From a virus (Duplodnaviria; Heunggongvirae; Uroviricota; Caudoviricetes), in IMG/VR virus record IMGVR_UViG_3300031853_000004, positions 101,319 through 143,542 of that record: a stretch of DNA of 42,224 bases; one strand, written 5' to 3'. Positions 1 to 27,149 of this stretch are shown one piece after another; the stretch's first letter is position 1; each line of letters starts with the position of its first letter. Under the pieces are notes generated by a model. It was not told the DNA's origin and did not search any database. It saw only the letters and a list, made by a program, of their open reading frames with translations. Position numbers and translations under genes: made by a program.

Positions 1-3000
1 AGCAGTAATTTCAACTCTCTGTTTAATAGTATCTCCCCCAAGTTTATTAAATCCAGTTCCTTTAACAGACATTCCGCTAAATACTTTTAGCATGTCAGCC
101 ATATTTCTTACCATATTGACCGCATTTAAAATATTTTCAGTATCAGAAGAATTTAATACCAACTCTTTTTGATGTAACATTGCAATTCTTCCATCGCCAT
201 TTCAGTCACCAGTATAACCACCTGTATCGAACAGCTGTTCAGGTTTTACTCACCCAAGCCATCCGCCATCTTCAGGATCTTCCAAGTGTACAGAATAGTC
301 TCCGGTATATTGATATCCTCCAACAGAAGAACCTGAAAAATCTGAAATTCTCACCGCATTTGCCTGTCCAGAATACCAATTTCCTGCGGGGTCTTCTCCC
401 CAAGAGTCATAGTAGTATCAACCATTGAATCCTACAATATCTCCAACATGGAAGCCGCCTCTACTGCCACCGTCTCCATTACCTGAGATAGAAGGAGGTT
501 CAGGGACATTCCCATATTTATCTCTACGGCCAGCTGCAATATCATCAAGAATGGTTTGATAATTTAAATTCTGAGCTTTAGATTGATCTAAATCTTCTTG
601 TGCTTTTCGTAATTGTTGAGCAGTAACCGCACTTGAATTTTTAACATCATCTAGTTGCTTACGATATTCTTCAAGCTGCTCTGTAGCTTCAACTAATTGA
701 GCATTATCACCCATTAAAGCATCATTTAGCTCACGAGTAGCCGCGGCTAAATCTTTAGTTGAGTTAGTTGCTTCTATAATAGCACCATCAATATTATTAA
801 AACCATTAGTTACTATTGGAGCTACTTCATCTTCAATTAAAGTGCGATATTTTTGAGCTTCATTTTGTATATCATTGCTTGCTCGATTATTAACATTCAT
901 TAGAGTATCTATATCTTCGATAACTCCGTCTATAGTTTCATTTCATTGAATACCTACTTCTCCAAGAGACTCATCAGTTTTTTCTTGGATAGCCGTCATA
1001 GCTTGTTCGGCCATGTCTCTAATATTATCTGTACCAGTTTCAGTCATTCATTGAAGAGCACCAACCATACCCTCTCAAGAATCACCCAGCTCTTCTGAGT
1101 AGGCAGCCATATCTCTTGCAAAATCCTCTTCGAGTTTTTTAAGAGCATCCGCAGCATCTTTATCACCTTGCTCAGCTCTTTGAACCAAAGCTTCTCTTTG
1201 TTGGATATAATTTTGATATGCACTTAACCAATCTGAGTATGTATTCATTCTGTTTTCAGTAGACATATTATAAGCATCAAACTCAGTTTGTAATAAATCA
1301 GCTTCTTTATCTCTTACATCATTTTGATTAGCAGAATAAACATATCTGTAATTACCTTGAGTATCTCTGCGAAGACGCATTTGATTTTTATTATTTCTAG
1401 CGTCTTCTAATGCTATCTGTTTTTGAAGAATTTCAAGTTGAGCATTTGCATATTTTACATTAAACTCTGAAAGATGCTCTTGATCTTGTAGATATTTCAC
1501 TTGCTCTTCCATTGCATCTCTAATTTGATTTTGAATAGCTAAGCTTGAACCCTGAGCATCGTCCAAGAAGTCAAGATATTTAAGTCTAAGTTGTTCTATT
1601 AAGTTAGCTTTCTGTACTTCATCATAATATCTATCAGCATAATTTTTGTCACGTTCTCAGTCAGAAGATATATCATCTATATTACGAGTACCAAATAAAC
1701 GTTGATTTTCTTTCGCTGTAATTTCTTTAATTGCATTTTCAAAAGCCTTTTGCCAAGCATCCGCAACTTCTTTCTGAATTTCAATTAATCTATCTTCTGC
1801 TTCTTCCATATTAGTGCGGACTTGCTTTGCTATGTCAGAAGTTTTATCTTCAATCGCTTGATATCTTGCTACTCACTGTTCATAGATTAACTTTTGATCT
1901 CTGGCTTGCTGTAAGGTAGTACGACCTATTTGGTCATAAAGTTTAGATATGTTACCAAACTCTTCTTCTCCATATACCAGAGCTCGTACATCAGCTATTG
2001 TCTCAAGTTTATCAGTTAATCTATCATAACGATCAATTTGTTCTTCTTCTCTTTCAGCAATATCATCATAGCCATCTATGATATCTTCTTCAAGTTGTTC
2101 TCAAGCTTTTTCTGACTCTAAAGCTAACTCCCGCATTCTATTATAAGCATCTTCATATGCTTCATATAAAGCTGCGGTATTTTGCTGGAAAGGATTATTA
2201 GCTGCATTTGGATTATCTATCCAAGTTTGCAATCTAGCTAAATCTTGACTTGCCAAGCCTAACGCGCCAGTCCCTAAAGGATTATTAGCAGCCGCTCCTT
2301 GTTGCTGTCGGAAGAATGCCGCATATGATTGATACGTAGCACGACTCTCTGCATCAGTAGCTCTTCTAGCCATTTCTTCATTCTTGTCAATTAATGTTTG
2401 ATAATAATCTATAGCTTCTTTCTTGGTTCCACCAAAAATATTTTTAAGCTTCTCTGCATCTACTATAGTTGCTCTAAATGGAGAATCTGATTTATAATCT
2501 GTAAATAAACCAAGAAGTTCCGCAGCATTGTCTCGGAGTTCTTTAATATCATCTATTGCTTGTTGTGATGCTTTATATGCTTCAATCCGCAAATCTTCAA
2601 TAGCGTCTTTTAATTCTTCTATTTGATTTAGAGTTTCTTTAATTTCTTTACCTTGAAGTTCATCATAACGTTGGTAAAGATCTTTAAATTTATCCAGGTC
2701 TTTTTGAGCATTTTCTATAGCAAGTTCTAAATCTTCCTGACCTTCTTCTGTAGCGGTATTATTATATTCATTAATTAAATCATTGACTCTACCTTCAAGA
2801 GATTTTAAGACTTGAGGATAATTGGAAATAAATCCTTCTGAATCGAATTTCGTTCCAAAAGGAGAAAGTTGATTTCTTAAATCATTTCTTTCTTTTTCTT
2901 GGATAGCAAGTTTTTCTTTTTGGAGGTCAATCTCTTTTTCAAGCAAAGTGATTTGCTTATTCATATTGGCGCGACCTTCAGGGCCAATTAATCTATCAGT

Positions 3001-6000
3001 TTCTTGTTGAATTCCTGAAAGAGTTTCTTCAACATCATTCAACTGAGTATTAACTTTTTCATAAAGATCTATTTCTTCTTCGATAGGGTCTTTGGTCTTT
3101 GGCTCATAAGTATCTCCTGAGCCGCCACCGCCTCCACCGCCTCCTCCTCCTTTGCCTCCACCAGAGCCACCGGTATTCTTACGATAAGTACCCCCTCCAG
3201 AATTCCCACCTTTCTTTCTGAGAGTTACTTGAGGAACGGATATGTTAGATACACCTGTTTGAGCAAAACTGATTGCTGACTTTACGCTAGATCCTATGGC
3301 TGCTCCTGCTGCGCCTCCTGCAAAAGCTCCTACTACACTAGAAGCTACATCTGCCATTGCAGATCCAACATTATTTGTCATTTCTATAATTGGCATAGGA
3401 ATCGTTGCATTACTTATTTCAACTTCATATCCTATTCCATCAAAAGCATTATTAATAACTTCTGCAGCTTCTGGAGAGGCAGCCATCATCTCAGATAAAG
3501 CATCTAAGAATGGAGCATCATCTAGAGTTGCACCTACTTCTAAATCAGGTAAAGCTGCGTCTGCTATACTTAGTCATTCTATTAATTGAGGAATTTGTTG
3601 CTCTGTTAAAGAAGTAGTCTCTAAATATGCTTGTAAATTAATTGGATCAGCGAAGGCTTCTCTTAATCTATAAATAGCAGAAGTATCGCCTTCTGCTAAT
3701 TCTCCCAATGCTCTTAGCGTATCTTCGCTTTGTAAAAAAGTATCGGTAATTGCTGATGGATCAACGTTCAAAATTTGACTTAATATATTTTGTAAATCAG
3801 TATAAGCAGAAGCTATTTCTCCAGGTGAACCATTTGAAATTGCATCATTGATATTTTCTCATTTTTCAGATAATTCATCCATTCCATTTGCTGTTTCTAA
3901 CGCTTCAACCGCAAACTGTTTTAAATCTTCTTTTGCTTTATCTAAGGAATTTGCTAAATTTTTTACTTCTTTTTGTGTTTTTTCAAAATCAGGCGCTTCT
4001 TCAGACATGTTCGATAATGCTTTATTTGCTTCTTCATAAGAATTAGTTAATTCGTCTATAGTTTCTCTTAAAGTATTGATTTCTCCTTCATCAACACCAG
4101 CCCCACCGCTTGCTTTAAAGCGCTCAACGTAATCGTCAATAGGTACATCTTCCATTTTAGCTGTCTTAAAAATCTCTTCTATCTTCTCTTGAGAATATCT
4201 ACCTATTTTACTAAGATTTTCTTCGGAAGGCTCTTGTAAGACAGTTTTTAATATAACTTCTAAATTTTCTCCATTATTTAATCTATTAACGATATTTCTT
4301 AAATCTCTTTCAATTTCTTCTCTTGTTTTATCTTGATCAATTGCTCCAACAATTTTAAATTGATCTTTAATATCAATATTTTTTAATATTTCAGAAAAAT
4401 CAATATCTTTACCTTGTCCACTAAGAGATAATTCAACTTCTTTTACACCTAAAGTTGCTTTAGCACTCTCATCAGTAATTAACTTTAATGCTTGTTGTAT
4501 TTTTTGTAATTCAGAAAAAGTATTTTCTGAAAAATAATTTGAAACTAAATTATTATTATCTGACTGTAAAATATTTAAAATTTCTGATATATCTGTTATA
4601 TCTTCAAATTGCTCTTGGAAATCATTTTGTTGCGATCTCGCATTAAATTCACTCTGCTGTGCATCTTTTGCATTTTGAGCATCTTCTGAATTTAAAAAAT
4701 CTTGAGTTAATTTAATTGCTCGCTCTATTTCAGCATTAGTATCTTTTCAAGCTTTAGTTCTTTTTTCTTCATTAGAAGCATTATTACTTTCTTCTTGAAG
4801 CTTTTTAAACTCTTCTAGTCTGTTTTCCATCGTACCAATAATTGCAACATCATCAGATAAATCAAAGATATTTGTAGAAGAAAGAACGTCTCTTATCTCT
4901 TGACTTTTAGTTCCACCAATACCAAAACGTCCTCTATATAATTCACTTCCACTATTTATTGCAGCTTGCCCAAGTTTAGAGCCAGCAGCTCCGCCTTCTC
5001 ACCATTCTGTTCCAAGACTGTCTTTTCTAACTTGTTCAGCCGCATTAATTAAATCATCTAATTTAGCTTGATTGGCATTTTCAATAGCCTTCGCCAGACC
5101 ATTAAAATTATTTGCGGCAATCATAGCATCAGTACCTGCTATACCAAGTTCTATACCTAACTCTTTCGCACTATTCTTTAATTCATCAGAAACTTTTCCG
5201 CTTTCTTTAAAAGATTCATATAGCTTATTAAAATTATCAATTTTATTACTGAAATCTTCACTTTCAGTTTTTAATTCATCAAATAATTCTTTATTTTTTC
5301 TTCTTGTCTCTTTTACTGATTCTACATAAGAATTAAAAGCTGCTACTGCTACTCCAATAGCAGTTGCAAGAGCTAAAAAGGGATGAGCAAGAATAACAGC
5401 TTTTAAAGAAGAAAAACCATTTTTTACTAAATCTAGTATACTTGGTAACTTCGCAGCTTTTTGGTTTAATCCTTCTGTAGCAATATCAACCATTGCCATC
5501 CCTTTTTCAACGCCAGGAGCTGCATTTTTAAGTTCATTTAGTTTTTTGGTAGCTTCTGCTCCAGCATTTGAAACATTTTCAAGGTTTTTAGCATAATTAT
5601 TCATGCTACCGCCATTACTAATATGCTCAATCAATTCATCATAAGCCAAAATTCCTTGATCTTCGATTTTTTTTAATTCTGCAACTATGTCTGTTGATGA
5701 AGACGTGAATGTGTTTGAAAATATGGACAAAAGATCTTTTTGTTTTAAAGTATCAAAAGCTGTAACTAACTGAGGAACAGTCATACTTAAATTCATTATT
5801 GTCTGAAGAATTTTATCTCCAGTTGTTAAATCTTCATTAGATCAAATACTTCCTAAATTTTGAAAACTTTGTCAAGCAAAAGCTAATTGTCCAACAGCAG
5901 CAGTAGTATCAATAATAGATTTTATTTGTTTCTGATTATCTAATCCTTCATTAAAAGCTTTAGCTTCGCTTTCAGAACGTTGTTTCATAGCTTTTCCTTG

Positions 6001-8328
6001 AGCAAGACTAGATTCTCCGGTCATTAAAGTTCTCAATAAATTATCTATATTAACTCTACCAGAAGTTAAACCTTGAATAGATTCAATAAATTTAGTAGCT
6101 TCCAGCGTTAATTCTCTAAGCTCTTCTTCATTTTTATTAGCGCTACCTTCAAAATTAATCATTTTATTTTCAAGATTTTCAAGCTGTTCAGCCATTTGAT
6201 TAAATTCTTCTGTTTGTAAAACACCAGCTTCTCTAAAATCTTGTAAAGCATTACTGGCACCATTAAAAACATTTTTTAATTTATCTGCCTTTTGATCCAT
6301 TGTTAAAGTACCAGAGTTAAAATCTTTTTGCATTTGAATAACAGTTAATAAAGATTCTTTAAACTCTATTGCAGCACTTTTACCATCTTTAAAATTTTGC
6401 ACATATTGTTTTAAATTTTCTCCTTGAGAAAACTGACTTAACATTTCTGCAAGAGCCTGCGTATCTTTTCCCAAAGCAGTATCCTGTACTGCGGCTCCAA
6501 CTATACCGGCTGCTCGTATAGCTTTTTCCATTTTTTCAGTTTCTTGTGCTACCATATTAGAATTATTAGTAATATCTAATAAAATTCTATTATATTGTTC
6601 TGCTTGCTGCTCCGACATATTAGGCAAAGCCTCTTGTCCTTTCATAATAAAATCTACAGTATTTTTAGAAGCTTGTCCTTGAAATGTTGTCGGATCAGTA
6701 AAACCAAGTTGTCTTAATGTATCAGGAACATTTAAAGCATTATCTTTTCTAGCTTGTTCTATTTTACGATTTATATTGGCATCATTAATCATTTGAGCCA
6801 TATTGTTACTAAATAATTTACCAAATAAAGCGACTACTCCTGTTAAAACAGTTTGTCCTCCACCAAGAGAATCAACTAATTTCTTAATTAAATCTACAAA
6901 ACTAGTTAAAGCATCCACTGCTGGATAAAAATTATCTGGATTAAAAACTGAATTAAATAATCCTTCTAATGTTGCTTGAAGCTTTGCTGTTCTCCCAGCC
7001 ATTGAATTAATATATTCTTCATTCATTTGATCAAGAGTACCACTTGCATTTAATGAAGCTTTTGCGTATTGATCATACATTTCAGGAGAATTCATTAAAG
7101 CTTCAAAACGACCTAATTGATATTTTCCTGCTACAGTTTGCGCTATCGCAGCTTTTTGAGTAGAATCTAGATCACTTCAGATCTCCATCATATCTTCTAT
7201 CATATCACCAACACTGCGCATTTTACCTTCTGCGTCAAGGACTTCAACTCCTATTCCTTGAAGGGCGCTGGTAACTTTGCCAAGATCAACACCGTCTTCT
7301 AAAGTTTCTCCAGCTTTTAAATCAGAAAATCTAGCATATAAAGTTTTAAGACCATTGCCGATTTGTTCTGGAGCTTCTTTTGTTACAGACTCTATAGTTG
7401 CAATTTGAGCATTTAATTGTTCAAGACTAACATCAACAGTTGCTGCGGTAGAAGCTGCTTTTTGAGAAGCTTTTGCGAGTTCTTCTACGTCTGCTGCTGA
7501 TACATTTGCTACCATGGCTCACGAATCAAGTGCTTTTTCTAATTCCTCCATACTTCCTGATAAATGATATGCATTCATTAAAGCAGTAATTTGATCAGAG
7601 GTAGTCGCAGAATCTTGCTCTGAAGCATTAGCTAATTTAATTGATAATTCTGCTAATTGACTTGACTGTTGAAGATCAAATCCTTGCTGAGCAAATACTT
7701 GAGATCCTCGTGTAACATCTACCGTAGTTGCTCCTAAAGCCTTAGCAGCTTCATTAGCGCTTTTAGCATATTCATTCATCTGTTCACGAGAATAGTCTGT
7801 TACTAACATAATTTGAGTTAAAGAATCATCCAATTCTTTAACATAGTCAACACTTTGATGTAAAGAATTTAACATAGCACTAAAACCACTTGATACTACG
7901 CCTCATCTAACAGTATTAGATATAGTATTAAACATTTTATCTACTGTTGTAGAGCTACGTTTTAATCCTGTATCAATTTTACCAATTTGGCCAAGAAGAT
8001 TATTCATAGCAACTTGCCCTTGAGCACCGCTATTTTTAAAAGCTATCCCTAAATCTTTTGCTGTAACTCCCGCAGCCTGTATTTGTGCTTTAAATTTTGA
8101 TAAATCTAACATACCAAGAGAAGAGTTAAAAGAAGAAGACAGTGCTTTGTTCAATTCTTGTAGCTGTCTAATTGGTTCATTAAAATTTAATTTATCATTA
8201 AGATCGTTGCCTGATAATCTTCTTAAAGAGGCTTCAACTTCTCTAATTTGAGTTTGTAATTGCGTTAAGCCACTTGAATCAAGCTTAGTTGATATAGAAT
8301 ATTCTATAGTATTTGAATATTTCGCCAT
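1..8328 (-). CDS. Tape measure protein (>2775 aa, C-terminus runs off the window); requires TGA=Trp
   Basis: ATG at 8328 with RBS GAGGAGG. One frame open to position 1 with no TAA/TAG and 18 in-frame TGA (7903, 7519, 7177, 5872, 5842, 4999, 4747, 3859, 3574, 2101, 1873, 1657, 1075, 1048, 943, 418, 250, 202), joining nine track ORFs. TMP-type motifs NTVR(W)G, EI(W)SDLDSTQKAAIAQTVAG and FDTGGYTGD(W)NGDGRIAMLHQKELVLN; Gly-rich linker near 3120-3210. Confidence 0.93.
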
Positions 8329-8471: not shown

Positions 8472-9038
8472 TTAATTAAATAAACTTTCTTCTGGTAATT
8501 CTATTTTTTTAGGTTCTTTTTCTTCTTGAATTTTATTATTCATTCCTCATTCATCTGCAACATTTAAAGTTTTTAAAGTATTATCATTATTCATAAAACT
8601 TTGCAATTCTTTAGTAAAAGTATCTAAATTATCAGAACTCATCATATCTGTTTGACTTAAAGCCCCTCCAAAAGAAAGAAGATATTCTTTATAGTCATTG
8701 AAATATTGTGTAGTTATACTACCTAAATAATCAAGATATGACATTGCACCTTCTGCGGTATTTATAGTTAATTCTTGATATTGATTAAATAAAGTTTGTA
8801 AAATCTCTTCTTTAATCATTTTATCCCAAGCTTCCATAGGATTGCGGTTAACCATATCTACAATTTCATCATCAATATCATCTACTAAATAAACAGCTAC
8901 TTTACACCAAAAAGCCTGCTCAAAGACATATTGATTAAGAAATCCATTATCATTAGCCGCATCTAAAGCAAAATTGATAATTTCATATCTCTCTTGAGTT
9001 GTAAGTGGACTAATAATTTCAAAATTTAAATCTAACAT
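8472..9038 (-). CDS. Hypothetical protein (188 aa), possible tail assembly chaperone; 1 in-frame TGA
   Basis: RBS AAGGAGG. The track ORF stops at TGA 8547; reading it as Trp extends to TAA 8472. The function guess rests only on position directly upstream of the TMP gene. Confidence 0.7.
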
Positions 9039-10637: not shown

Positions 10638-10659
10638 TTATTCTCTCCAATCTATATAA

Positions 10660-10692
10660 AAAAAGAGGGCGATATAAAATCACCCTCTTTAA
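10660..10692 (-). terminator. Intrinsic terminator after the major tail gene
   Basis: AAAGAGGGTGA-loop-TCGCCCTCTTTTTTT on the minus strand. Confidence 0.75.
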
Positions 10693-10715
10693 ATCCTAAA
10701 TTAAGGCTCAATTGA

Positions 10716-11005: not shown

Positions 11006-11178
11006 CATCATGTTCAGTTAAGTTCGCTACTCTTAACCCGTTCGTTCTATAACGAACAGCTGCATCTTTATATATACATGCAGATCAGACTATATCTTCA
11101 TCCTATTCTGGTATAAAACAGGAGCCTTCCACTTCGAGTCGCTTGACTCTACTTCCTTTCGGAATAGTCGTTGAACCT

Positions 11179-15663: not shown

Positions 15664-15664
15664 G

Positions 15665-16192: not shown

Positions 16193-16744
16193 CTATTGGA
16201 CTCTGCGTCCTTGTGGTTTCACTTCTTTATTTGAACCAACTCGGCGAGTTTTACGCTCTGTTGGAGTATCTTCAACTAAACTATTTAGCTCTTCCGCATA
16301 ACTAATCATTTTTGTAATATCATGACCGGTTTCTTGCTGAATTAAACGATGCTTATTAATATCTGGAATTTGAAGAATTACTGCTTGACTTACAATAGTA
16401 TCAACAATTCCAATAGGAGCAAAATCCAAAGCATCTGCTAATTCATCAATAGAACCATTAAGTAAAACTCTTTTAACATCATTTAAAGTCCAAGAGTACT
16501 CATGAGTAAAAAGATCTTCTGAAATACCAAACTCTGCGGCGAGGTCTTGATTCTCTACTGCAAGATAATCTTGTAATAGCTTTGAACCTCCTGGAAGGTA
16601 CCAAAGTTGACGCAATTCAGCGGCAGTTAGCTCTTTTGTTTCAAAACCTCTAAAGACTCTTCGTACTCGTAGTTCTGGAATTGTAAAAGCTACTATTTGG
16701 TCTGTTAGGTTGCGGACTCGAACTGTAATATCATCTTTAATCAT
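16193..16744 (-). CDS. Conserved head-module hypothetical protein (183 aa), no TGA
   Basis: RBS AAGGAG, ATG 16744; open in the standard code; TAG stop; both Trp codons are TGG. Confidence 0.8.
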   Translation of the reverse strand: MIKDDITVRVRNLTDQIVAFTIPELRVRRVFRGFETKELTAAELRQLWYLPGGSKLLQDYLAVENQDLAAEFGISEDLFTHEYSWTLNDVKRVLLNGSIDELADALDFAPIGIVDTIVSQAVILQIPDINKHRLIQQETGHDITKMISYAEELNSLVEDTPTERKTRRVGSNKEVKPQGRRVQ

Positions 16745-16779
16745 TTTCAATCTCCTTTTAATCTCCATTTTATAAAATA

Positions 16780-18104: not shown

Positions 18105-19196
18105 CTAATCACCGATCTCCTTGCGGCGAGTACGTGTATCATCAAGTGAAGAATCTTTGTAAGCGCAAATCCAATTAATTTGACCCATATGAGCGACGGT
18201 ACCAACGCCTACCTTCTGATACATCTGAACATCGGTTGACCAATCTTCATTGTTATCAGTGGTACGAAGTAGAAGTTGCCCCTCAAAGACAATTTTAACA
18301 GGCTTCTCTGTGCCAGTAGGAATAATATAAGCAGTTGAAGGATTAACGACAAAATTAGTATTTGTCTCATCAACAAGACCCTGCTGTAGAATTACAACAT
18401 TATGACCCTTATAATTACCGAGCCAACCATCTGCCCACATACGATCTTTCATAGCGTCAGACCAACGACCCTCAGAAGGAATCATCTTATTGGCAAACGC
18501 TTGTGTACAATAAATTGTTGCACGGCCATACTGATCAGCAATAGCGAGTAACTCATCCATTACTTCCTCGTCAAAGCCATTGACAGTTGCTTTATTAACC
18601 TCAGGAATGTCGGCAATCATAGCAGTAAGAGCCGCAGCTACCTCACGAGCAATGAAATAGTCAAACTCCTCCATGATAATCTGAGAATAATCAGCGAGTG
18701 ACCAACGTCCGTCAAGAACTTCTTCGAAGCCAATGCGGACTGCGCTGGTGATAGCACCAGTCTCAACTGTCATCTCAGCACCATCAAGCATGAATGTCTC
18801 GTAACGAGCTGCAAGCGCGCCACGGGTAACAAATGTACGAGCACGACGCTTAGAAGCTTCAGTTACACGAATCTTAAATACTGCACGATCACCCTGAGCA
18901 ATATGCTCAACATCAGCAAATTGCATATACATTTTATCGACACGGGCAGGAATAACCTCTTCAAGCACATGAGAAACTAGAGCAAAAACCTCGTCACGAT
19001 TAGCTTTCCAAGTATAATAATCTACTTTACCGCCATTATAACCAAGTCTTTCAGAAAGCTCTTTTGCAAGAACTTCATTCACTTGTTCAATAGAATACTG
19101 TTCATTCTTACCATTAAAGGAGAAATTAACAGAAGTGCCTTTATCTGCACGAACTGCCTGTTTAGCAAGCATTTCTAAATCTTTAAAATCTAGCAT
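18105..19196 (-). CDS. Major capsid protein (363 aa), no TGA
   Basis: Strong RBS GGAGG. Located after the protease/scaffold and accessory genes; size and codon bias of a highly expressed gene; 7 Trp, all TGG; ends in TAG. Confidence 0.8.
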   Translation of the reverse strand: MLDFKDLEMLAKQAVRADKGTSVNFSFNGKNEQYSIEQVNEVLAKELSERLGYNGGKVDYYTWKANRDEVFALVSHVLEEVIPARVDKMYMQFADVEHIAQGDRAVFKIRVTEASKRRARTFVTRGALAARYETFMLDGAEMTVETGAITSAVRIGFEEVLDGRWSLADYSQIIMEEFDYFIAREVAAALTAMIADIPEVNKATVNGFDEEVMDELLAIADQYGRATIYCTQAFANKMIPSEGRWSDAMKDRMWADGWLGNYKGHNVVILQQGLVDETNTNFVVNPSTAYIIPTGTEKPVKIVFEGQLLLRTTDNNEDWSTDVQMYQKVGVGTVAHMGQINWICAYKDSSLDDTRTRRKEIGD

Positions 19197-19216: not shown

Positions 19217-19708
19217 TTAAGCCTTAGTTACTTGGAGTTTAAGACCGGGCTGACCATCAGGCATAGTTGTCTCTTTAACAATTGTGCACTCAAGATCGCC
19301 TGTGCCAACCTCAAGAATACCCTCGTCGCCAGGAGTAAGTACCTGACCAACAGAGTAGGTAGCATTAGCAACATTATTTGTAGTGAAAATATCACCAGCG
19401 TGCATTACGAATACACGAGGATACATCTTACCATCGTAGAAATCCGCAGCCTGCATAGCATAGTCGCGATGCATCTGGTGACGCTCATCATAGAGCTTCT
19501 CCTCATTAAAGACCATCATCCAAGGACCTTCGCCAGTGAAATTCACTTCACCGTTAGCATAATCATACTTTACAAAGGTGCCCTGCTCAAGGATATCAAT
19601 CCCATCAGCCGCAGGAAGCTGACCATAGACTTGGCCGTTGCGAGGAGCAGAAAGGTGATTAGGCTCAACAACTGCGAAGCCTAGTTTACCATCAAAAGTA
19701 ATAGCCAT
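19217..19708 (-). CDS. Putative capsid accessory/decoration protein (163 aa), no TGA
   Basis: RBS AAGGAG; between scaffold and MCP; GC3-enriched codons like the MCP. Confidence 0.7.
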   Translation of the reverse strand: MAITFDGKLGFAVVEPNHLSAPRNGQVYGQLPAADGIDILEQGTFVKYDYANGEVNFTGEGPWMMVFNEEKLYDERHQMHRDYAMQAADFYDGKMYPRVFVMHAGDIFTTNNVANATYSVGQVLTPGDEGILEVGTGDLECTIVKETTMPDGQPGLKLQVTKA

Positions 19709-19729: not shown

Positions 19730-21040
19730 TTATTTGCTTGCATTACGAAGAGCACGCTGTAAATCTGTTAGCTGCTCTGTAGTTGTTTCATCCTCAAGGG
19801 AGAAAGTCATTTCAGGGGAAGGCTCGTCGTCAGACTGCCCATCTACCTTGGTAAAATCTACATTCTGTTCAACGTACATAATAGCTAATTTAGCTTTAAT
19901 ATCGTCGTAAGAATATTCAGCCATGTGATCAACAATTTCTTGCTTATCTTCGTCAGAAAGCATGAAATAGCTATCAATCAAAGACTGTTTCTGTTGATTC
20001 TCAATTTTTAGCTTAAAATTACGTAACTCCATAACCTCTGCGCGAAGAGATTCAAGTTCGTTATTCATTGCATTAAATTGCTCTTCAGAAAATTCTGAAT
20101 CTGTATTATCACTATCTTCAGACTCTTCATGAACATATTCTTCATCTTCAACAATGGAATCGTCCTTGTCGTCATCCTCTGTTTCGTCTGAATCAACATC
20201 TTCATCTTCTACAGTTTCAATTTCTTCTGTAGTATTTTCAAAATCCGTACTCTCTTCAGTTGCGGTATCATCTACCTGCTCAGGAGCTACTTCATTCTCA
20301 AATTCTTGATCTTCAGTATTAGACATATTCAACCCTCCTTTGCTATTTAAGGTTTCTTTTAGCTCTTGCATCATCGTAAACAAAGTATTTTCAAAACTCT
20401 CTTTAGAAAAATTTGAACTTACTTGCGGAGATGTAATAGAGCTTCCTTCATAGCAAGGCTCAACGTCATCTCCCAGAATACATAGTTTACTAAAAACTGC
20501 ATCGTTAATAATAAAGAAATCTACACCCAATTCTCTATCTTCTGCCCAGTGACCCTCTAATGATTCACCGTCAAGCTCCATTGAATGCGGCTGACCTTCT
20601 TCAATAACTTTTGTAAGCTCTGGAAATTGTCCAGTTCATAAATAGCCAGTTGTCATCATATAAGTTCGCTCAACTTTATTATCAAATTCATCTGTGTCTG
20701 TAAAATTTTGAAATCAAATTTTTGAATCAGGAGCTACAAAGCCATAAGGAACAGTTTTACAGGAAAAACTAATTTCTCCATCTTCGATATGAATTACATG
20801 ACCATGATCACCAAAATCTTCTTTTTTTTCATTGTAGGCCGCTACTATTGGCGTTCCTCTTAAAGTTTTAGCCATTTTTAAAGCGGTATCTTTATTAATA
20901 TATGAATGATTTCTATTATGACCAAGGTAAAAAACTTTAATTTCGCAAGTTGAAATTAGTGGTGAAAGATCGGAAGGTGTAAGATTTATAAATTCTGGAT
21001 TATCAATGGTAGATACCTCAGATCTATTTTTTAACGCCAT
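19730..21040 (-). CDS. Prohead protease/scaffold protein (436 aa); 2 in-frame TGA
   Basis: RBS AAGGAGG. TGA 20714 and 20636 (GYL(W)TGQFPE) join the track ORFs; long acidic coiled-coil C-terminus typical of scaffolds. Confidence 0.8.
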
Positions 21041-21053: not shown

Positions 21054-22601
21054 CTAACTTTCGGACTCTTTATTACGTCTTGTTTTGTCAGACTGCTCAT
21101 CCTCTGGTAATGGAGGACGTCCGCCCTGACTACCCGCAGATGGTTTATTACCGGTTTGTGTTTTAGATTCTCCTACTGTACCAGCTGTAGTAGTTGAAGA
21201 CGCAGGAGGTCTAAATACTTCATCTAAATGAAGAATATCATTCTCAAATATTGCGGTTGATAACACAACACTTTGAGATTGTCCAAGAGCAACTTGAGGT
21301 AAAAGTTTAGAGAAACCAATTTGAGTTTGCTCTTTATAGACTTTGGATAAATCTTTATAATTATAACCGGTAGTTGGTAACATCTGCACGGTGTAACGAA
21401 GCTTTTTAACATTTTTATTAAAAGGCTTCAAGAGACTCTCTGCATAACTTCCAAATTGAAGTAGCAAATCAGTCATTGTGGCTTCGTCATTCACAATAGA
21501 TTTCTCTAAAGCGAGGTTGCCAGTGGTATTAAACAACATTTGACTAGCGCCAGCTTCATTGTATACAGTTCTTTCCACTTTATCTAACTGGTCCGCGGCC
21601 GACATATTAGAATGATCTGATAAATCTTCTACAGCAACGTCCGCAAACGTAGTTAACACATCAACACCAATTGTTTCTCCAAGCATAGCAACAGCATTTT
21701 TATGTAATTCTTTACCTTCTTCTATATCAAAAACAGGAATACTATTTTTATCCATAGGAAGTTGTTGAACTACTAATCTTAAAAGTTGCTGTTCCATTTT
21801 CTTTTTATCTAACTCTTGAGCATCTTCTAAGTCTAATAACTTGGGAACAATTGAAAAGAAAAATGGGGTATCTGAATTATTTAAATTAAATTTTACCGCT
21901 TTTTCAGCATCTAAACCAATTCATCCATCATTCTTAGTGTCTTCTCCTTCAAGAGCGCCTTTTTTGTATTTTATATATCCTTGTTGGAACTCTTTTGGAA
22001 AAGCTTTTAATACTTTCATTCTTTTCTTTGTAGTTGTAAAACAATCATCGAAGAAACGCACATTAAATTCAATAATAGGATTACCATTTAATTTAAAATT
22101 ACTGCGCGAATATTTAATAGGAAGCTCCTGTAAAGAAATCATAGTATCATTTCCTACTTTATAACCATAGTAACAACCATTTTTTATTACTTTAAGCGCA
22201 ATTTCTCCAAATAATTTTTTTAAATTACACCTATCCAAGAGAAGAACAGATTTCATTCAGCCTTCAATAATTTTATTATCTTTGATTTTTTCGTCTATGC
22301 GGATAGGCGTGACGAATCAATCATAACGATATAGATACGCCATATATCTACAAAGTCGAGAATAAATACCACTTACTGTAAAAAAGTAATTTGAAATTGC
22401 TCGCATCTCTTCTAAATTATTGGATTGAATTGCGCGTTCTCAACGAAGCCGCAAATCATTTTTTCGAGCTCGTCTTTCATTAACTTTTTTAAGGTCTAAA
22501 AGAACTTCATCTCTGTAAGCAGTACCACCAATTCTCATTTTGTTAAAATCATAAGAAGGACGCTGTTGTTCAGTCGCAGAGACCAAACGAATATCATTCA
22601 T
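21054..22601 (-). CDS. Portal protein (515 aa); 4 in-frame TGA
   Basis: RBS AAGGAGG, ATG 22601. TGA at 22440, 22317, 22257 and 21921; motif SGIYSRLCRYMAYLYRYD(W); no TGG; TAG stop; position between TerL and protease. Confidence 0.82.
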
Positions 22602-22615: not shown

Positions 22616-22972
22616 TTAATACCCCGCTTGATGCATAATATAATCATAAGTGATTCTATTTTCATCATAATGAGGAATAGTAATTAATTGTATACCATGC
22701 TTTAAGCAATAGTTCTTTTTTTGAGTATCATTATATTGTTGCCTATTTTTTCCTTTTTCGCCACCAAATTTAGAAACTCCTTGATAATGCTGTCTACCTT
22801 GAGCTTCTATTAAAAAATCTAATTGTCCATCGTCATTAAATACAGCGAAGTCGAATCTCAATGGCCTTCCGCTTGAAGCGACTAAATCATCGAATGTATA
22901 CTCTTCTTCAAAAGGAACGTCATAGTCTGTTAAAATATTGTGTATCTTTACTTCCATTTTTGATGATAACAT
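22616..22972 (-). CDS. PD-(D/E)XK-like endonuclease (118 aa)
   Basis: RBS AAGGAG, ATG 22972; motif LRFDFAVF...LIEAQGRQHY...NDTQKKNYCLKHGIQLITIPHY. Confidence 0.7.
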   Translation of the reverse strand: MLSSKMEVKIHNILTDYDVPFEEEYTFDDLVASSGRPLRFDFAVFNDDGQLDFLIEAQGRQHYQGVSKFGGEKGKNRQQYNDTQKKNYCLKHGIQLITIPHYDENRITYDYIMHQAGY

Positions 22973-23006
22973 ACTATTGCACTCCTTTCTCACTATTACT
23001 CTAAAG

Positions 23007-23046
23007 TATATAAAATTTAGATAAAACAAATTATTCAATTTTGCCC
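23007..23046 (-). promoter_or_regulatory. Candidate phage-specific or activator-dependent promoter motif
   Basis: GGGCAAAATTGAATAAT-N17-TATATA, with an identical 17-mer and identical spacing at 42014-42053. Confidence 0.5.
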
Positions 23047-23067: not shown

Positions 23068-24813
23068 TTAGTCAAAAAACATGAAACCAGATAAATCCCG
23101 CATTTTTCTCTTAGTTGATCTGTCCTCTTGGAGCTTACAATAGTATAAACCATAAATGAGTCCAGAAAATTTATCTTTTTGAATTTTTTTGCTTGAACGT
23201 TTTAAAATAATATTCGCTCCTTCATGCTCTTGAATAAGATTCATCATTTCTTCTTTAAGAGATGATGTTTTTACGAAAGGCATTAAATATTCTGCTCGTT
23301 GACTAGGACTCATTTTTTTACCTTGAGCTTGTGTCATTAATTTATTTTTAGCAATTTGTTCATCTACTAAGAAATTAATACGACCCGCATTTATTTCTGC
23401 TTGACAGTAAGCATACATTTCAGAATTTAATGGAGCATTTGCTTTCATTACATACATTGCATTTTCAATTGTATTTTCCGTTTTCATATTTCTATATTTA
23501 AAATCATCATCATTGTAAACGCCTCAATTGTACAAGGTTTCTCCAGTATCAGGATCAATAGTATCCATTGTCAACATATCAACTAAACCTTGACCTAAAC
23601 CATTACCGTCTATTACCGCAATTTGACATTTATAAAGATTAAATAATCTTTTTAATTTAAGAGCTTGCATGCCAAAATGTTCCTCATCAAAAGAATAAAT
23701 ATTAACAACTCTTTTTCTTGGGGTATCTCCAGCTCCAGGAGTGACTTTTATAATAATAACTTCAGTTGTACAATTAAAACGACCAACATCAACACCCATA
23801 ATATAATAACCATCTTTGGATGTTCGATTGCTAAATTTTCACTCTGCCTGATTAATTTTTCTTTGTTTATCAAAACGTTCTGAAGAGAAGAATGCTGATT
23901 CTATATCTCCCGTCCAATGAGATTCATATTCTCGTTCAAATGAAGCTTCATTATATGTCCCGTCCATTTTTAAGGTACGAATGAAATCTTTATCAAATAA
24001 GCCTTCCATCATTGGAACTCTTCAACTACCACCTAAAACAATTGCTTCATTTGGTCTTGCAACAGATTGACAAAAAGTTTGAATTAATTTTTCATATCAA
24101 ACTGTATTTTTATATCCCGCAGTTGTTACATAAATTTCACTTTTATTTAATTGTTCTCTTGGATCTGAAGTTCCTTGAACTTGTCTGTCAACATTTAAAG
24201 TTGGTTTAAGAACTTCATTATATATATCCTGATCTACACCCACACATTCTTCTACAAGTAACGATTGTAGACGAGATCCTCTTGAATTTTCATTCGCGGC
24301 AATATTACGTAAAATTGAACCATTCACAAAAGCGTAAGTTACTGAATCTTTTGTTTGAGAAGTCCTAGCTGCCATACCTCTAGTATCTCATATTATCTCT
24401 TTACCCATAGCCGGAATCAATTTACATATCTCCATAACCTTAGAGCTTACAATTTGAGCTGACTGTTCTTTACCTCCCGCCGCAGTACCAATTGTCGCTC
24501 CTGGGTACAGGATGCATTTTAACATTAGGCCCATCACACTCATAAAAGATTTTGATCAAGCCCGCACAAAAGTTCCATACAGATATTTATGTCTAAAAAG
24601 TGCACGTAAAAATAATCTTTGATATGCTCTAAATCGAAAATTATAAGGGTTTCCAAGAGAGAGATAATAATCTACAAGTTTGTCAGGATAAACTCTTCAA
24701 TAAGCAATTAAATTACGATACGCTTCAATATTTTTAATGATATGTTCTTTTAAAGAGTCAGGATCTCAATCCTTCTTTTTACTTGATGGTCTAATAATAT
24801 CTTTTAAAGCCAT
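23068..24813 (-). CDS. terL: Terminase large subunit (581 aa); 8 in-frame TGA
   Basis: ATG overlaps the upstream TAA (TAATG). TGA at 24766, 24697, 24556, 24388, 24097, 24022, 23839 and 23524. Walker-A-like RA(W)SKS, Walker-B-like LLVEE, TTAGY, nuclease motifs GVDVGR and DKFSG. Confidence 0.88.
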
Positions 24814-26066
24814 TATATCTCACCTGCCTCAACCATCCGAAGCAATTCTTCTGCTTCTGCTTCAATTTCATTTTCATATTCAACAGGACTTTTTTCTCTA
24901 TCTTTTTCATATTTTTCTTCTCTAAGTCGTTGTTGTTCAGCTTCTTCCGCAGATGTGACAAGACCAAGATTTACGTCAAGAGATTCATCTTCTTGCTTTT
25001 CAAGCTTTGCAATATAAGACTCAATTAAGTCTCCAAGTCGTAGCTCATCTGCCGCGAGATGATAGGTGTAAGCTTTTAAATCTTTTAATTCAAAATCAAT
25101 TACATCTTGAGGATACTGATTAGGATCAAATTGCGGCAACGCTTCAATAATACCTCCATTTTTTTCACAAAGCGCAGCTAATTCTCCAATAGTAGAAAGA
25201 AGTTCTCTTTTTTCTTCTTTCTTTTGTGCTTCTGTAAAACGACCTGATTTACGAAGTTGATCAAAGACGGTTGCGAGATTTTTATAAGCTGTTATATCTC
25301 CAGTATCTAGAGCTTCATCCATCTTTAAAGAAGTTTTGCACATTTTCTTTAAAACTTCTTCTCGGTCAGAGTTTAAATCATACTCTTCCGCATATTTTTG
25401 ATACATTGTTTCCATTGTAATTCATTGTTGAGGATTATACATTACTCCTCATTTTAAAAGTAAATAATCAATATCTTCTTGAGTTAATTGATTTGATCAA
25501 TATGTATCATCTTTTGCATAAGGAGGTTTTTCTTCTTTTTCTTCTTCCTCTTGAATATCCATATCAACAAAATCTATATTTTCTCCAAGAGAAGAAGGTT
25601 CAGTAAGTGTGCGGTATTCTGCTTCTGAAATTTCACCTGCGTCTAATTTTCGTTTTAGTTCTTCTTTATTTAAGTTTTCTTTTTCTGCGAGTGCTTTAGG
25701 TTTATATTCTTTTCCTTGCGATTTTGCCCGAGCTTCGTCGTAAGTGTCAGCTGAATGTTCATAACGTATATCTTCATATTGTTTCATATTCATTGTTCGT
25801 ATATAATTACCTATAACAGACTTTGGGCCAAACTTACCGGGATTCCGCATATAGATTTTATTTGTAAGCTCTACTCATTTTTCTTTAATGTAAGGAACAT
25901 CAAATTCTTTTAGAATTCAGTCGAAAGTACTTCTATCTCGATTATCTATATATTGAGTTAAACAATCTTTACAAAGCTTATAACGTTCTCCTGATTTCAT
26001 TTTAAAGAATTCTGTTTCTCTTAATGACCTCCCGCACTTTTCACATTTTTTCTTTGCTACAGTCAT
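24813..26066 (-). CDS. Zn-ribbon protein (417 aa), putative terminase small subunit-like; 5 in-frame TGA
   Basis: RBS AAGGAGG, ATG 26066. CEKC...CKDC at the N-terminus; TGA at 25917, 25875, 25497, 25449 and 25422 (LK(W)GVMYNPQQ(W)); directly upstream of terL. The TerS role is inferred from position. Confidence 0.7.
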
Positions 26067-27149
26067 TTATTTTTCCTCCTTCCCATTGCGGCACTCTCTA
26101 CATTGACTATAAAAACCTTCTTTATTGGAATTTTTAGGGAAGAAGAAAGGATGTGCAGGCATGACCTTCCCGCACTTTGAACAAGTTTTCCAATTTAAAG
26201 AAGAATCTGTTTTATAATTGTTTAAGTAATGTTTTAAAATGTAGCGTTTTTGTACTTCTTTAGAGATTAATTTGGGAATGCGTCTTCTTCAAATAGAAGA
26301 ATAATACTGTTCTGTATGATTAACTCCATAATGTTTTAAAACTAATTCTTGAATTTGTTTGTTAGAGCGTCCATCTACTTTTCAAATTAAAATATCTCAA
26401 AGCATTGGGTATTTTTGTTCTAAAGCTGCGGATGCTACCTCTTCTAAATCTATTAAGTGTCAAAGCATATCACTTTCTAAAAGATATCAAGATTCTTCTT
26501 TTAGTGGTTGGTAGTATTGAAGAAGAAAAGATACGTGATCTGGATTTAAAAGAGTGAGTAGATCATCGCTATATGGGTATCCATCTTTTCAGTAAACTGT
26601 TTCTGGAATATCAATATTTGCTAAATATTGTGTTTTATTAGTGGATATGTTGAGTGCCATTTTATGAGAACTTTTTATTAGATAAAGTTGTTTTCAAGTT
26701 TCTATAATAGTTTTTTTTAAGTTTTTGCGGCGTTGACCTGTTGCGTGTTGATATTGTCATTCTAATTTTTTTATTACGTTAAGTCCTTCAGCTATGCCTG
26801 GAATATTTTTTATATCTTCTTTAGTTAGAGGATCTTTATTGTCAAGTTTCATTTCTTTGTTATCACACATGATAGAATAAAGTCCATCTTCTCCATTTTC
26901 TAATCTATCAATTAAACCTTCATAAGATATCTGTCTTTTGTCTATTGTATGTTCTCTATTGGGAGTTGTTATTGGATAATCTTCTTTACGTTCTTTTTTA
27001 GTTTGATTTTTATCTCGGGTAAAAAGTAGATAATCCCCCAACAGAGAAAGTTCATTAGAGTTTGGGGTATATTTTGATAAAAGTTTATCAACAAATTCTT
27101 TGCGGGATTCGATGGTTTGTAAGGAATAATCTAAAAACAAGGTTCGCAC
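26067..27149 (-). CDS. First gene of the late block: putative transcriptional regulator with HTH-like segment and C-terminal Zn finger (about 360 aa); 8 in-frame TGA
   Basis: TGA at 26757, 26694, 26589, 26487, 26460, 26397, 26382 and 26289; TAA 26067; C-terminal CSKC...CREC; HTH-like DILI(W)KVDGRSNKQIQELV. Start is GTG 27149 or TTG 27140. Confidence 0.72.

What the first reader, a model, noticed from the sequence alone, without database searches (positions are those of the whole stretch)
1..27149. Whole morphogenesis block uses TGA as tryptophan (opal recoding)
Seen: 14 minus-strand genes are interrupted only by TGA (about 65 in frame versus about 20 TGG by my count), never by TAA/TAG or frameshifts. 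Reading TGA through restores full-length TMP (>2775 aa), TerL (581), portal (515) and protease/scaffold (436). Known: stop-codon-recoded gut phages have been described, most often with TAG reassigned; TGA recoding is the rarer type. Inference: the TGAs fall where I recall conserved Trp in these families (GYTGD-W, YRYD-W, GYL-W-TG, AY-W-RVYPD, GGS-W-RVP), so the meaning is Trp (code-4-like) rather than Gly.
Basis: partly seen in the sequence, partly recalled or inferred. Interest (0 to 1): 0.92.

Follow-up and report, generated by a model that had tools for sequence, protein, structure and literature searches.

The report
Phage late genes read TGA as tryptophan
This is the head-and-tail gene block of a 143.5-kb cattle-gut phage in which 14 of 21 genes use the stop codon TGA for tryptophan, a kind of phage recoding already described, and the phage's own unusual TGA-reading tRNA lies elsewhere on the genome.

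Summary
Window 1-27149 holds 21 minus-strand ORFs. Fourteen carry 67 in-frame TGA, against 34 TGG in the block (20 in those 14 genes), with no internal TAA or TAG. Reading TGA as sense raises coverage from 0.74 to 0.95.

The meaning is tryptophan, not glycine:
- Of 37 TGA sites with orthologues in related phages, 26 are mostly Trp. True TGG sites score 15 of 22. Gly appears in 1 of 163 cells.
- Six of eight TerL TGA sites are Trp, Phe or Tyr in cultured standard-code phages.
- All six TGA sites of the phage's endolysin align to TGG in a high-GC Atopobiaceae genome.
- Adding TGA to TGG restores the Trp-codon frequency of the TGA-free replication genes.

"Whole block" overstates it. Seven genes are TGA-free, including the capsid and major tail proteins.

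ARAGORN and Rfam miss the decoder. A hairpin scan found a 96-nt tRNA at genome 26449-26544, outside the window. It has anticodon UCA, discriminator G73, an encoded CCA end and an extra arm that copies the Trp anticodon loop. It lies upstream of the lysis genes.

This matches the published stage-biased TGA recoding of gut phages (Borges et al.). The scan found this before, on this genome's adjacent window and on other DNA. It is a new member of a known kind, of low to moderate interest.

The parts
1..8328 (-). Tail tape measure protein. 2776 aa lie in the window and 2806 aa in the full record; the 3' end lies 92 nt before the window start. 18 TGA, 7 TGG.
   Evidence: Open under table 4. phrog_4211 and ten other tape measure families, E down to 2e-80. 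Full extent. Five TGA sites align in relative G001: 4 Trp, 1 Val.
8472..9038 (-). 188-aa ORF of unknown function. 1 TGA at codon 164, 2 TGG.
   Evidence: No PHROG match. The TGA site is TGG in G001.
9111..10637 (-). 508-aa ORF of unknown function. 6 TGA, 0 TGG.
   Evidence: No Pfam or PHROG match. No orthologue was aligned, so the meaning of TGA here rests on the rest of the block.
10652..11011 (-). 119-aa ORF, TGA-free (1 TGG).
11179..11688 (-). HNH homing endonuclease inserted in the tail module. 1 TGA at codon 18, which may lie upstream of the true start. 3 TGG.
   Evidence: phrog_59, E 1e-39. Counts.
11772..12737 (-). Virion structural protein, probably the major tail protein. TGA-free (2 TGG).
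   Evidence: phrog_2729. The homologue in Bacillus phage Thrax3 is annotated major tail protein.
12829..13605 (-). 258-aa ORF (phrog_4051), TGA-free (1 TGG).
13599..14279 (-). 226-aa virion structural protein. 3 TGA, 0 TGG.
   Evidence: phrog_6123. TGA46 and TGA146 are Trp in all relatives aligned.
14194..15354 (-). 386-aa ORF. 5 TGA, 3 TGG. The start codon is uncertain, because the ORF overlaps the next gene by 86 nt.
   Evidence: Four of five TGA sites are majority Trp in relatives.
15358..15795 (-). 145-aa ORF. 3 TGA, 0 TGG. The start is uncertain, because it overlaps 15665-16168.
   Evidence: phrog_29637. TGA82 is Trp in relatives.
15665..16168 (-). 167-aa ORF. 1 TGA at a variable site, 1 TGG.
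   Evidence: phrog_3853. The site is Glu, Gly or Lys in relatives.
16193..16768 (-). 191-aa ORF, TGA-free (2 TGG).
16833..18095 (-). 420-aa ORF. 2 TGA at codons 226 and 414, 1 TGG. It lies in frame after the capsid gene's TAG stop.
18105..19196 (-). Probable major capsid protein (SPbeta YonB-like). 7 TGG, 0 TGA.
   Evidence: Atlas feature search: 85 of 100 hits are YonB capsid clusters, score 0.99. phrog_4088. Its position after portal and the 436-aa gene fits a capsid gene. P(0 TGA among 7 Trp codons) = 5e-4 given the block's TGA share of 0.66. It is TGA-free in all relatives.
19217..19708 (-). 163-aa ORF, TGA-free (1 TGG).
19730..21040 (-). 2 TGA, 1 TGG.
   Evidence: phrog_3313, function unknown. 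TGA109 and TGA135 are Trp in all six relative groups.
21054..22601 (-). Portal protein, 515 aa. 4 TGA (codons 54, 95, 115, 227), 0 TGG.
   Evidence: phrog_2739, E 1.5e-77. Site 227 is Trp in 108 of 118 distant portals. Sites 95, 115 and 227 are Trp in all six relative groups.
22616..23038 (-). 140-aa ORF with no Trp codon of either kind.
23068..24813 (-). Large terminase (SPbeta YonF type), 581 aa. 8 TGA (codons 16, 39, 86, 142, 239, 264, 325, 430), 1 TGG.
   Evidence: phrog_2, phrog_15503, phrog_24618. Translation. Column tallies. It is 31-42% identical to the terminases of cultured Bacillota phages.
24813..26066 (-). 417-aa ORF just upstream of TerL (phrog_3314, function unknown). 5 TGA, 0 TGG.
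   Evidence: Four of five TGA sites are Trp in relatives.
26067..27149 (-). 360-aa helix-turn-helix or sigma-region-4-like protein, the first gene of the block. It is either a small terminase or a late regulator; this is unresolved. 8 TGA, 1 TGG.
   Evidence: phrog_5767 'sigma factor', E 2e-25. Atlas leads to GerE/Sigma70_r4. Five of eight TGA sites are majority Trp in relatives.

Best explanation
The window is the virion-assembly block of a 143.5-kb tailed phage from cattle gut. The phage belongs to the SPbeta-like lineage (YonF terminase, YonB capsid). It writes two thirds of the tryptophans in this block as TGA. Its replication and early genes use only TGG and avoid TGA, so an unmodified standard-code host can translate them. 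Late genes (tail, head, packaging and also lysis) need TGA to be read as Trp. The likely decoder is a phage tRNA at genome 26449-26544 on the minus strand, outside the window. It is 96 nt long, with anticodon UCA, an A1-U72 pair, discriminator G73, an encoded CCA end and a non-canonical T-loop. An extra arm carries the loop GUCCAAA, which copies the anticodon loop of tRNA-Trp. The host's tryptophanyl-tRNA synthetase probably charges it and it competes with release factor 2 at UGA. Shown here: the in-frame TGAs, their Trp meaning, the stage bias, and the existence, fold and covariation of the tRNA. Inferred: the host's code, charging with Trp, the role of the extra arm, the timing of tRNA expression, and the idea that the most abundant virion proteins stay TGA-free because suppression is incomplete.
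For: In-frame TGA.

Trp meaning:
- Codon-level TGA/TGG interchange in relatives.
- Family and distant homologues.
- Cultured standard-code phages.
- All 6 endolysin TGA sites equal TGG in a GC-0.59 Atopobiaceae MAG gene.

Stage bias:
- Replication region 31-70 kb has 156 TGG and 13 TGA in 12101 codons. Most of those TGA sit at the ends of greedy ORFs.
- Late region 76.5-128.5 kb has 128 TGA and 57 TGG in 16484 codons.
- Trp-codon density there is 3.5 per 1000 without TGA and 11.2 with it, against 12.9 in replication genes.
- Whole-genome coverage rises from 0.744 to 0.872.

Decoder:
- A hairpin scan found one intergenic UCA arm.
- The minimum-free-energy fold is a five-arm cloverleaf of -38.7 kcal/mol, z = -2.6.
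- 16 of 20 IMG/VR pattern hits have the same architecture. Extra-arm pairs 2-5 are paired in 14 of 14 sequences, with 4-5 pair types each, and G73 is present in 13 of 14.
- When only the second arm and T-arm are fixed, 7 of 8 two-arm tRNAs carry UCA in the first arm.
- The tRNA lies after an HNH gene and upstream of a 520-aa ORF and two TGA-bearing endolysins. Consensus sigma-70 promoters sit on the same strand.

Other points: no RF1/RF2 or TrpRS domain was found in the record. The nearest cultured phages infect Enterococcus, Geobacillus, Bacillus and Lactococcus. The pattern matches Borges et al., preprint 10.1101/2021.08.26.457843.
Against: - No expression, charging or peptide data exist for this phage.
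- The tRNA is missed by ARAGORN defaults and by Rfam RF00005 at E up to 10. Its fold z-score alone is modest.
- Which of its two anticodon-like arms enters the ribosome is not shown.
- The TGA-using relatives G001 and G003 carry a homologous two-arm tRNA whose first loop is A(C/A)GCAAA, not UCA. The decoder story is therefore incomplete for the family.
- The host is unknown. Endolysin similarity points to Atopobiaceae and terminase similarity to Bacillota.
- Up to about ten ORFs have a TGA within the last few codons, which could be a real stop.
- Thirteen of the 18 tape measure TGA sites and all six in 9111-10637 have no aligned orthologue.
Confidence: 0.8

Rival explanations
1. The host itself uses table 4, for example a Mycoplasmatales-type bacterium, and the phage simply shares its host's code with no code switch.
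For: The ORF structure under TGA = sense is identical under this model. The genome is AT-rich (GC 0.32), like code-4 bacteria. The host was not identified.
Against: Replication genes use TGG and avoid TGA: 156 TGG against 13 mostly end-of-ORF TGA. A code-4 host would not impose this. Only 63 of 180 ORFs hold any TGA. The phage carries its own UCA tRNA, which is unnecessary in a code-4 host. The nearest cultured relatives infect standard-code Bacillota. The endolysin's closest bacterial homologue is in high-GC Atopobiaceae. Borges et al. use a low share of recoded genes as the sign of a standard-code host.
Confidence: 0.06
2. TGA is read as Trp, but the 96-nt tRNA is not the decoder. Instead, host tRNA-Trp(CCA) reads UGA by near-cognate pairing once the phage disables or outcompetes RF2, or a remodelled CCA tRNA acts like the Hirsh suppressor.
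For: Relatives G001 and G003 use TGA but show no UCA anticodon. Their two-arm tRNA has a canonical CUCCAAA loop and an aberrant D region. G002 and G005 have a one-arm CCA tRNA. Borges et al. found suppressor tRNAs in only 35% of TGA-recoded genomes. It is established that tRNA-Trp(CCA) is the main natural UGA misreader.
Against: G000 has a well-folded UCA tRNA of a recurrent, covarying class. No RF-related gene or obvious RF2 antagonist was found, although unknown proteins abound. Decoding 207 in-frame TGA by misreading alone would be very inefficient.
Confidence: 0.1
3. TGA means glycine (table 25), as in phages of Absconditabacteria and Gracilibacteria.
For: Coding density is the same as under table 4. 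Distant portals show Gly in 28 of 118 sequences at one variable site.
Against: Gly is opposite TGA in 1 of 163 cells in relatives and in none of 48 cells in cultured phages. TGG is depleted reciprocally. The tRNA has the Trp identity marks G73, A1-U72 and a CCA loop copy.
Confidence: 0.01
4. The TGAs are real stops, from decayed genes, an assembly error or programmed fragmentation.
For: None beyond the table-11 reading.
Against: Conservation continues across every TGA, and full-length homologues exist. The coding frame has no TAA or TAG in 8849 codons, against about 600 in each off frame. The same sites are TGA or TGG in independent assemblies. The stretch, or parts of it, is held in runs from 17 studies.
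Confidence: 0.01

Closest known systems
TGA-recoded 'Agate' phages and other stage-biased alternatively coded gut phages (Borges et al., preprint 10.1101/2021.08.26.457843; later in Nature Microbiology 2022, from my own knowledge)
   Same: Large phages of about 127-154 kb from cattle, pig and other animal guts. TGA aligns with Trp. TGA accumulates in structural and lysis genes while the replication genes stay in standard code. Close relatives differ in TGA load. The suppressor tRNA is often not detected by standard tools.
   Different: Clade membership could not be tested, because none of their sequences is available here. In this genome the decoder is a five-arm tRNA with a Trp-anticodon-loop copy, a feature that paper does not describe. 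The capsid and major tail genes are TGA-free.
Code-change module of Jade phages (suppressor tRNA + TrpRS + RF1 upstream of the lysis cassette; same preprint, Fig. S6)
   Same: The TGA suppressor tRNA lies upstream of TGA-bearing lysis genes.
   Different: No TrpRS or RF1 is present in this record. The tRNA follows an HNH endonuclease gene.
phAss-1 group of human-gut phages (PMC10607447)
   Same: Genome of about 136 kb. Its terminase is 43% and its capsid 42% identical to this phage's. Stop-codon recoding affects structural genes.
   Different: phAss-1 reassigns TAG, not TGA (abstract).
SPbeta-like siphoviruses of Bacillota (Enterococcus phages H1, VRE9 and EF1, Geobacillus E3, Lactococcus 949/AM group, Bacillus PBC2/Thrax)
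   Same: YonF-type terminase, YonB-type capsid, genomes of 125-170 kb and the same gene order.
   Different: They use the standard code and have Trp, Phe or Tyr where this phage has TGA. Identity is only 31-42%.
Native table-4 decoding in Mycoplasma and Spiroplasma (tRNA-Trp UCA, no RF2)
   Same: UGA is read as Trp by a UCA-anticodon tRNA.
   Different: There the whole genome uses TGA and the cell lacks RF2. Here only about a third of ORFs use it, and the decoder is phage-borne with an extra arm.

Membership tests
Alternatively coded (TGA to Trp) phages with stage-biased recoding | Conserved genes are interrupted in frame by TGA only | tested here: met
   67 TGA, 0 TAA and 0 TAG in 8849 codons of 21 ORFs.
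Alternatively coded (TGA to Trp) phages with stage-biased recoding | Coding density rises by more than 5% under table 4 for contigs of at least 100 kb (criterion of Borges et al.) | tested here: met
   Whole record 0.744 to 0.872. Block 0.740 to 0.946.
Alternatively coded (TGA to Trp) phages with stage-biased recoding | TGA aligns with Trp in homologues | tested here: met
Alternatively coded (TGA to Trp) phages with stage-biased recoding | Recoding is concentrated in structural and lysis genes, with replication genes in standard code | tested here: met
Alternatively coded (TGA to Trp) phages with stage-biased recoding | Phage-encoded suppressor tRNA with anticodon UCA | tested here: met
   Genome 26449-26544, minus strand. 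Cloverleaf fold, and 85 bits against a class model that includes it. Function was not tested.
Alternatively coded (TGA to Trp) phages with stage-biased recoding | The host uses the standard code | tested here: inconclusive
   Host not identified. Cultured relatives infect Bacillota. The closest endolysin homologue is in Atopobiaceae. Early genes are TGA-free.
Agate clade (Borges et al.) | Placement inside the clade on the large-terminase tree | not testable with these tools
   No Agate reference sequences are held. Size, cattle origin and TGA pattern are consistent.
Table-25 phages (TGA = Gly) | TGA aligns with Gly | tested here: not met
   Gly in 1 of 163 cells and 0 of 48 cells.
Phages of native table-4 hosts | TGA is used for Trp throughout the genome, early genes included | tested here: not met
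   The 31-70 kb region has 156 TGG against 13 TGA, and 63 of 180 ORFs hold any TGA.
SPbeta-like phage lineage | YonF-type large terminase and YonB-type capsid protein | tested here: met
   tblastn gives 31-42% identity over more than 90% of TerL, to records annotated YonF or terminase. The capsid link rests on an atlas feature match and tblastn. Pfam YonB is not in the local library.

The most novel reading that the evidence does not exclude
The code switch is carried out by a five-arm opal suppressor tRNA that keeps tryptophan identity although its anticodon is UCA. It does so by displaying a copy of the tRNA-Trp anticodon loop (GUCCAAA) on an extra arm, together with A1-U72 and G73, so that the host TrpRS still charges it. 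Because this suppression is incomplete, TGA density would set not only the timing but also the yield of late proteins. That would explain why the capsid and major tail proteins are kept TGA-free. Within this one phage family the tRNA occurs in three states. G002 and G005 have one arm with CCA and few TGA. G001 and G003 have two arms with a non-UCA first loop and moderate TGA. This genome has two arms with UCA and heavy TGA. The states could be steps on the way to recoding. I found no published description of such a tRNA, but the scan has already noted the class on other DNA.
Probability: 0.4. Interest if true: 0.7.

Novelty: new member of a known kind. Interest (0 to 1): 0.3.

Why it matters
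For annotation, a table-11 reading cuts 14 virion genes into about 40 fragments, so records of this phage family need table 4. For biology, this is a clean example of two coding regimes in one genome, and internal statistics alone (reciprocal TGG depletion) reveal what TGA means. The more useful leads lie outside the given finding. Standard tRNA finders miss the decoder because of its extra arm and odd T-loop, which may partly explain why only about a third of TGA-recoded phages were reported to have a suppressor. The TGA-free capsid gene also suggests a cost of suppression that can be tested.

Tried and rejected
- Pfam found nothing for ten block proteins at E up to 0.01. PDB sequence searches for the capsid protein and TerL were empty.
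- ARAGORN at default and relaxed settings, and Rfam RF00005, gave no credible UCA tRNA. Two low-score ARAGORN 'tca' calls inside the window (29292-29375 and 39064-39155) fold poorly and were rejected.
- RF-1, PCRF and class-Ib synthetase domains are absent from the record.
- BLAST of the 96-nt tRNA against five relatives found nothing. A loop-pattern search in those relatives gave only chance hits. A hairpin scan of the whole G001 record found no UCA arm.
- Contigs from four public runs were laid on portal and TerL to look for TGA/TGG polymorphism. None of the listed differences falls on a TGA codon, and 316 differences were not shown, so this was uninformative.
- T-arm-like motifs at genome 30806-31042 and 26131-26147 are tRNA fragments or odd tRNA-like elements without a UCA loop.
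- Pfam PF27364 (YonB) is not in the local library.
- Selenocysteine was considered and dropped. With 207 sites genome-wide and Trp in homologues, there was no reason to look for SECIS elements.
- TAG reassignment was rejected, because coverage rises only from 0.74 to 0.78.
Full report
WHAT THE WINDOW IS

The window is the last 42,224 bases (101319-143542) of a single-contig IMG/VR virus record of 143,542 bases. The record is linear, and CheckV estimates it as 100% complete. GC content is 0.32. The exact sequence occurs in a bovine gut metagenome. Diverged relatives occur in bovine and sheep gut runs; in all, 17 studies hold the stretch or part of it.

THE OBSERVATION

Under table 11 the left 27 kb breaks into about 40 ORFs with a median of 141 aa. 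With TGA read as sense it becomes 20-21 minus-strand ORFs with a median of 361 aa, and coverage rises from 0.740 to 0.946. Reading TAG as sense barely helps (0.776).

- The 21 frames hold 67 TGA, 34 TGG and no internal TAA or TAG in 8849 codons. The two off frames hold 585 and 655 TAA plus TAG.
- Fourteen genes carry TGA, and those 14 hold 20 TGG.
- PHROGs confirms the large terminase (23068-24813), the portal (21054-22601) and the tape measure protein (1-8328). The tape measure protein is 2806 aa in the full record. Pfam recognised none of them.

WHAT TGA MEANS

Four lines of evidence agree on tryptophan.

1. Internal statistics.
- In the late region (genome 76.5-128.5 kb) TGG occurs 3.5 times per 1000 codons. 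In the replication region (31-70 kb) it occurs 12.9 times.
- Adding TGA brings the late region to 11.2. TGA therefore fills the gap left by TGG.

2. Codon-level comparison with ten related IMG/VR loci in six groups.
- Window TGA codons align to TGG 121 times, TGA 65, Tyr codons 23 and Phe codons 9.
- Per site, 26 of 37 TGA sites are majority Trp, the same rate as genuine TGG sites (15 of 22). Gly appears in 1 of 163 cells.
- The complete relative G001 gives 31 Trp at 42 TGA sites.

3. Homologues whose genetic code is not in doubt.
- In six cultured phages of Enterococcus, Geobacillus, Brevibacillus, Bacillus and Lactococcus, six of the eight TerL TGA sites are Trp, Phe or Tyr. The other two are variable, and none is Gly.
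- Portal site 227 is Trp in 108 of 118 distant portals.
- Outside the window, all six TGA codons of the phage's endolysin align to TGG in a GC-0.59 Atopobiaceae MAG gene that is 59% identical.

- AY-W-RVYPD is Trp in 115 of 115 family homologues and GGS-W-RVP in 120 of 120.
- YRYD-W is Trp in all six relative groups.

Table 25 (Gly) is excluded. Coding density cannot separate tables 4 and 25, but the alignments do.

HOW FAR THE RECODING GOES

"Whole block" overstates it, because seven of the 21 genes have no TGA.
- The probable major capsid protein (18105-19196) is YonB-like by atlas features and by tblastn to SPbeta-like phages. It has 7 TGG and no TGA. Given the block's TGA share of 0.66, this has P = 5e-4. 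It is TGA-free in every relative as well.
- The probable major tail protein (11772-12737) is also TGA-free.

Genome-wide, 63 of 180 ORFs of at least 60 aa hold TGA. Large replication genes have none: the 1244-aa, 699-aa, 647-aa and 630-aa ORFs carry 4-16 TGG each and 0 TGA.

TGA is at most a rare stop. All ORFs end in TAA (142) or TAG (38) when TGA is read through, and about ten have a TGA within the last few codons that could be a true stop.

Relatives differ widely in TGA load. L007-L009 have 4-5 TGA against 43-49 TGG in the same genes. This is the pattern Borges et al. describe for Agate phages.

THE DECODER

ARAGORN and Rfam list about 11 tRNAs, none with anticodon UCA. No release-factor or class-Ib synthetase domain is present.

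A scan for 5-bp stems closing a YUUCARN loop gave ten hits, of which one is intergenic. It lies in the tRNA region, on the same strand as the other tRNAs there. The surrounding 96 nt (genome 26449-26544, minus strand) fold at minimum free energy into a five-arm cloverleaf of -38.7 kcal/mol (z = -2.6):
- a 7-bp acceptor stem with A1-U72, discriminator G73 and an encoded CCA end;
- a D hairpin;
- an anticodon arm with loop CUUCAAA;
- a 6-bp extra arm with loop GUCCAAA;
- a T arm whose loop, GGCGGUA, is non-canonical, which explains the failed detection.

The architecture recurs in other phages.
- A pattern fixing only the two loops found 20 IMG/VR loci. Sixteen have the same five-arm form with unrelated stem sequences.
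- In 14 distinct sequences, extra-arm pairs 2-5 are paired in 14 of 14, with 4-5 pair types each. G73 is present in 13 of 14.
- RNAalifold recovers all five helices, with compensatory changes at 16 of 20 pairs.
- When only the second arm and the T arm are fixed, 7 of 8 two-arm tRNAs have UCA in the first arm.

The tRNA follows an HNH endonuclease gene by 2 nt. It lies upstream of two more tRNAs, a 520-aa ORF and two endolysin genes with 6 and 2 TGA. Four consensus or near-consensus sigma-70 promoters lie on the same strand within 5 kb.

From established knowledge, bacterial TrpRS recognises G73, the anticodon and A1-U72. The natural reading is that the extra arm preserves recognition by TrpRS after the anticodon changed from CCA to UCA. 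This is inference; nothing here shows charging or decoding.

WHAT THE DECODER STORY DOES NOT EXPLAIN

A covariance model of the class scores 85 bits on this genome. It also finds homologous genes in relatives.
- G001 and G003 use TGA moderately. They have a two-arm tRNA whose first loop is A(C/A)GCAAA, not UCA, and whose second loop is the canonical CUCCAAA.
- G002 and G005 have few TGA. They have a one-arm CCA version with A73.
- I cannot say how G001 and G003 decode TGA. A Hirsh-type mechanism (a CCA tRNA with a remodelled body) is a speculation only.

COMPARISON WITH WHAT IS KNOWN

Stage-biased TGA-to-Trp recoding has been described for the Agate, Jade and other clades. The features include TGA-free replication genes, TGA-rich structural and lysis genes, closely related standard-code relatives, and suppressor tRNAs detected in only 35% of genomes (preprint 10.1101/2021.08.26.457843).

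This phage fits that description in size, habitat and pattern. Clade membership could not be tested. phAss-1 (PMC10607447) is a TAG-recoded member of the same broad lineage, with a terminase 43% identical.

The scan had already reached the same reading on the adjacent window of this genome (e1-1834747). It had also noted the two-arm suppressor class on other DNA. I re-derived both independently here.

VERDICT

The finding as stated is a new member of a known kind and of modest interest. The tRNA is the more novel element, but it lies outside the window and has been noted before by this scan.

Noticed in passing
G000:C1:26449-26544, minus strand (L023:950-1045:-); outside the window: A 96-nt five-arm tRNA with anticodon UCA, G73, an encoded CCA end, an extra arm with loop GUCCAAA and a non-canonical T-loop GGCGGUA. 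ARAGORN defaults and Rfam miss it. It is the likely TGA decoder, 2 nt after an HNH gene and upstream of the lysis genes.
   Followed up: yes
L014:697-783:- (G003), L035:15347-15433:+ (G001), L079 (IMGVR_UViG_3300040801_001280): A variant of the two-arm tRNA. The first arm has the loop A(C/A)GCAAA, or an 8-nt AUCGCAAA, instead of UCA. The D arm is a GAAA-tetraloop hairpin whose stem covaries, and the second arm is the canonical CUCCAAA. These phages still use TGA for Trp, and how they decode it is unexplained.
   Followed up: partly
L012:1417-1498:- (G002) and L015:2012-2093:+ (G005); also L012 about 1623-1734: Relatives with very few TGA carry an 82-nt tRNA-Trp(CCA)-like gene with A73. Its anticodon arm differs from this phage's UCA arm by one loop base. 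Next to it lies a 109-nt Rfam tRNA match with an insertion of about 24 nt.
   Followed up: partly
G000:C1:30640-31160, minus strand (L023): Repeated consensus sigma-70 promoters (TTGACA/TTGACT, 17 nt, TATAAT) are each followed by a similar leader and by tRNA-like pieces. One piece has a good acceptor and T arm but an oversized D loop and no recognisable anticodon (about 30797-30910). A T-arm-like hairpin at 31026-31042 is followed by what looks like a tRNA 5' half.
   Followed up: no
G000:C1:22982-24019 (L057:10982-12019:-) against L060, L061 and L063: The endolysin's catalytic domain is 59% identical to genes on GC-0.59 contigs of a sheep-gut Atopobiaceae MAG and 48% identical to one in an Olsenella MAG. 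This is a possible host lead, at odds with the phage's GC of 0.32 and its Bacillota-phage-like terminase. L062, in a 'Bacillales' MAG, is a TGA-recoded phage contig (14 TGA, 4 TGG in the match).
   Followed up: partly
window 38180-38593 (+): A 137-aa ORF with 9 TGG lies in a GC-richer stretch (0.42). It ends at TGA under table 11, and read-through would add 28 codons. It is a candidate for a genuine TGA stop in the otherwise TGA-free right half of the window.
   Followed up: no
window 16833-18095 and 18105-19196 (-): The capsid gene ends in TAG, and the next ORF (420 aa, GTG start) lies in the same frame 9 nt downstream.
   Followed up: no
window 22254-22446: A 193-nt contig from a bovine-gut metatranscriptome library is identical to the window. 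It spans three portal TGA codons (54, 95, 115) unchanged. If it is RNA, the TGAs are not edited away, but DNA carry-over cannot be excluded.
   Followed up: partly
window 11179-11688 (-) and G000:C1:26547-27290 (-): HNH homing endonuclease genes sit inside the tail module and directly upstream of the suppressor tRNA. In both, the called ORF contains TGA (in 11179-11688 at codon 18, which may precede the true start).
   Followed up: no
G000:C1:53359-53545 (+): Two adjacent type-II tRNAs, Ser(GCU) and a second with loop CUAGAAA. ARAGORN reads the second as anticodon AGA, and A34 is unusual for bacteria and phages.
   Followed up: no
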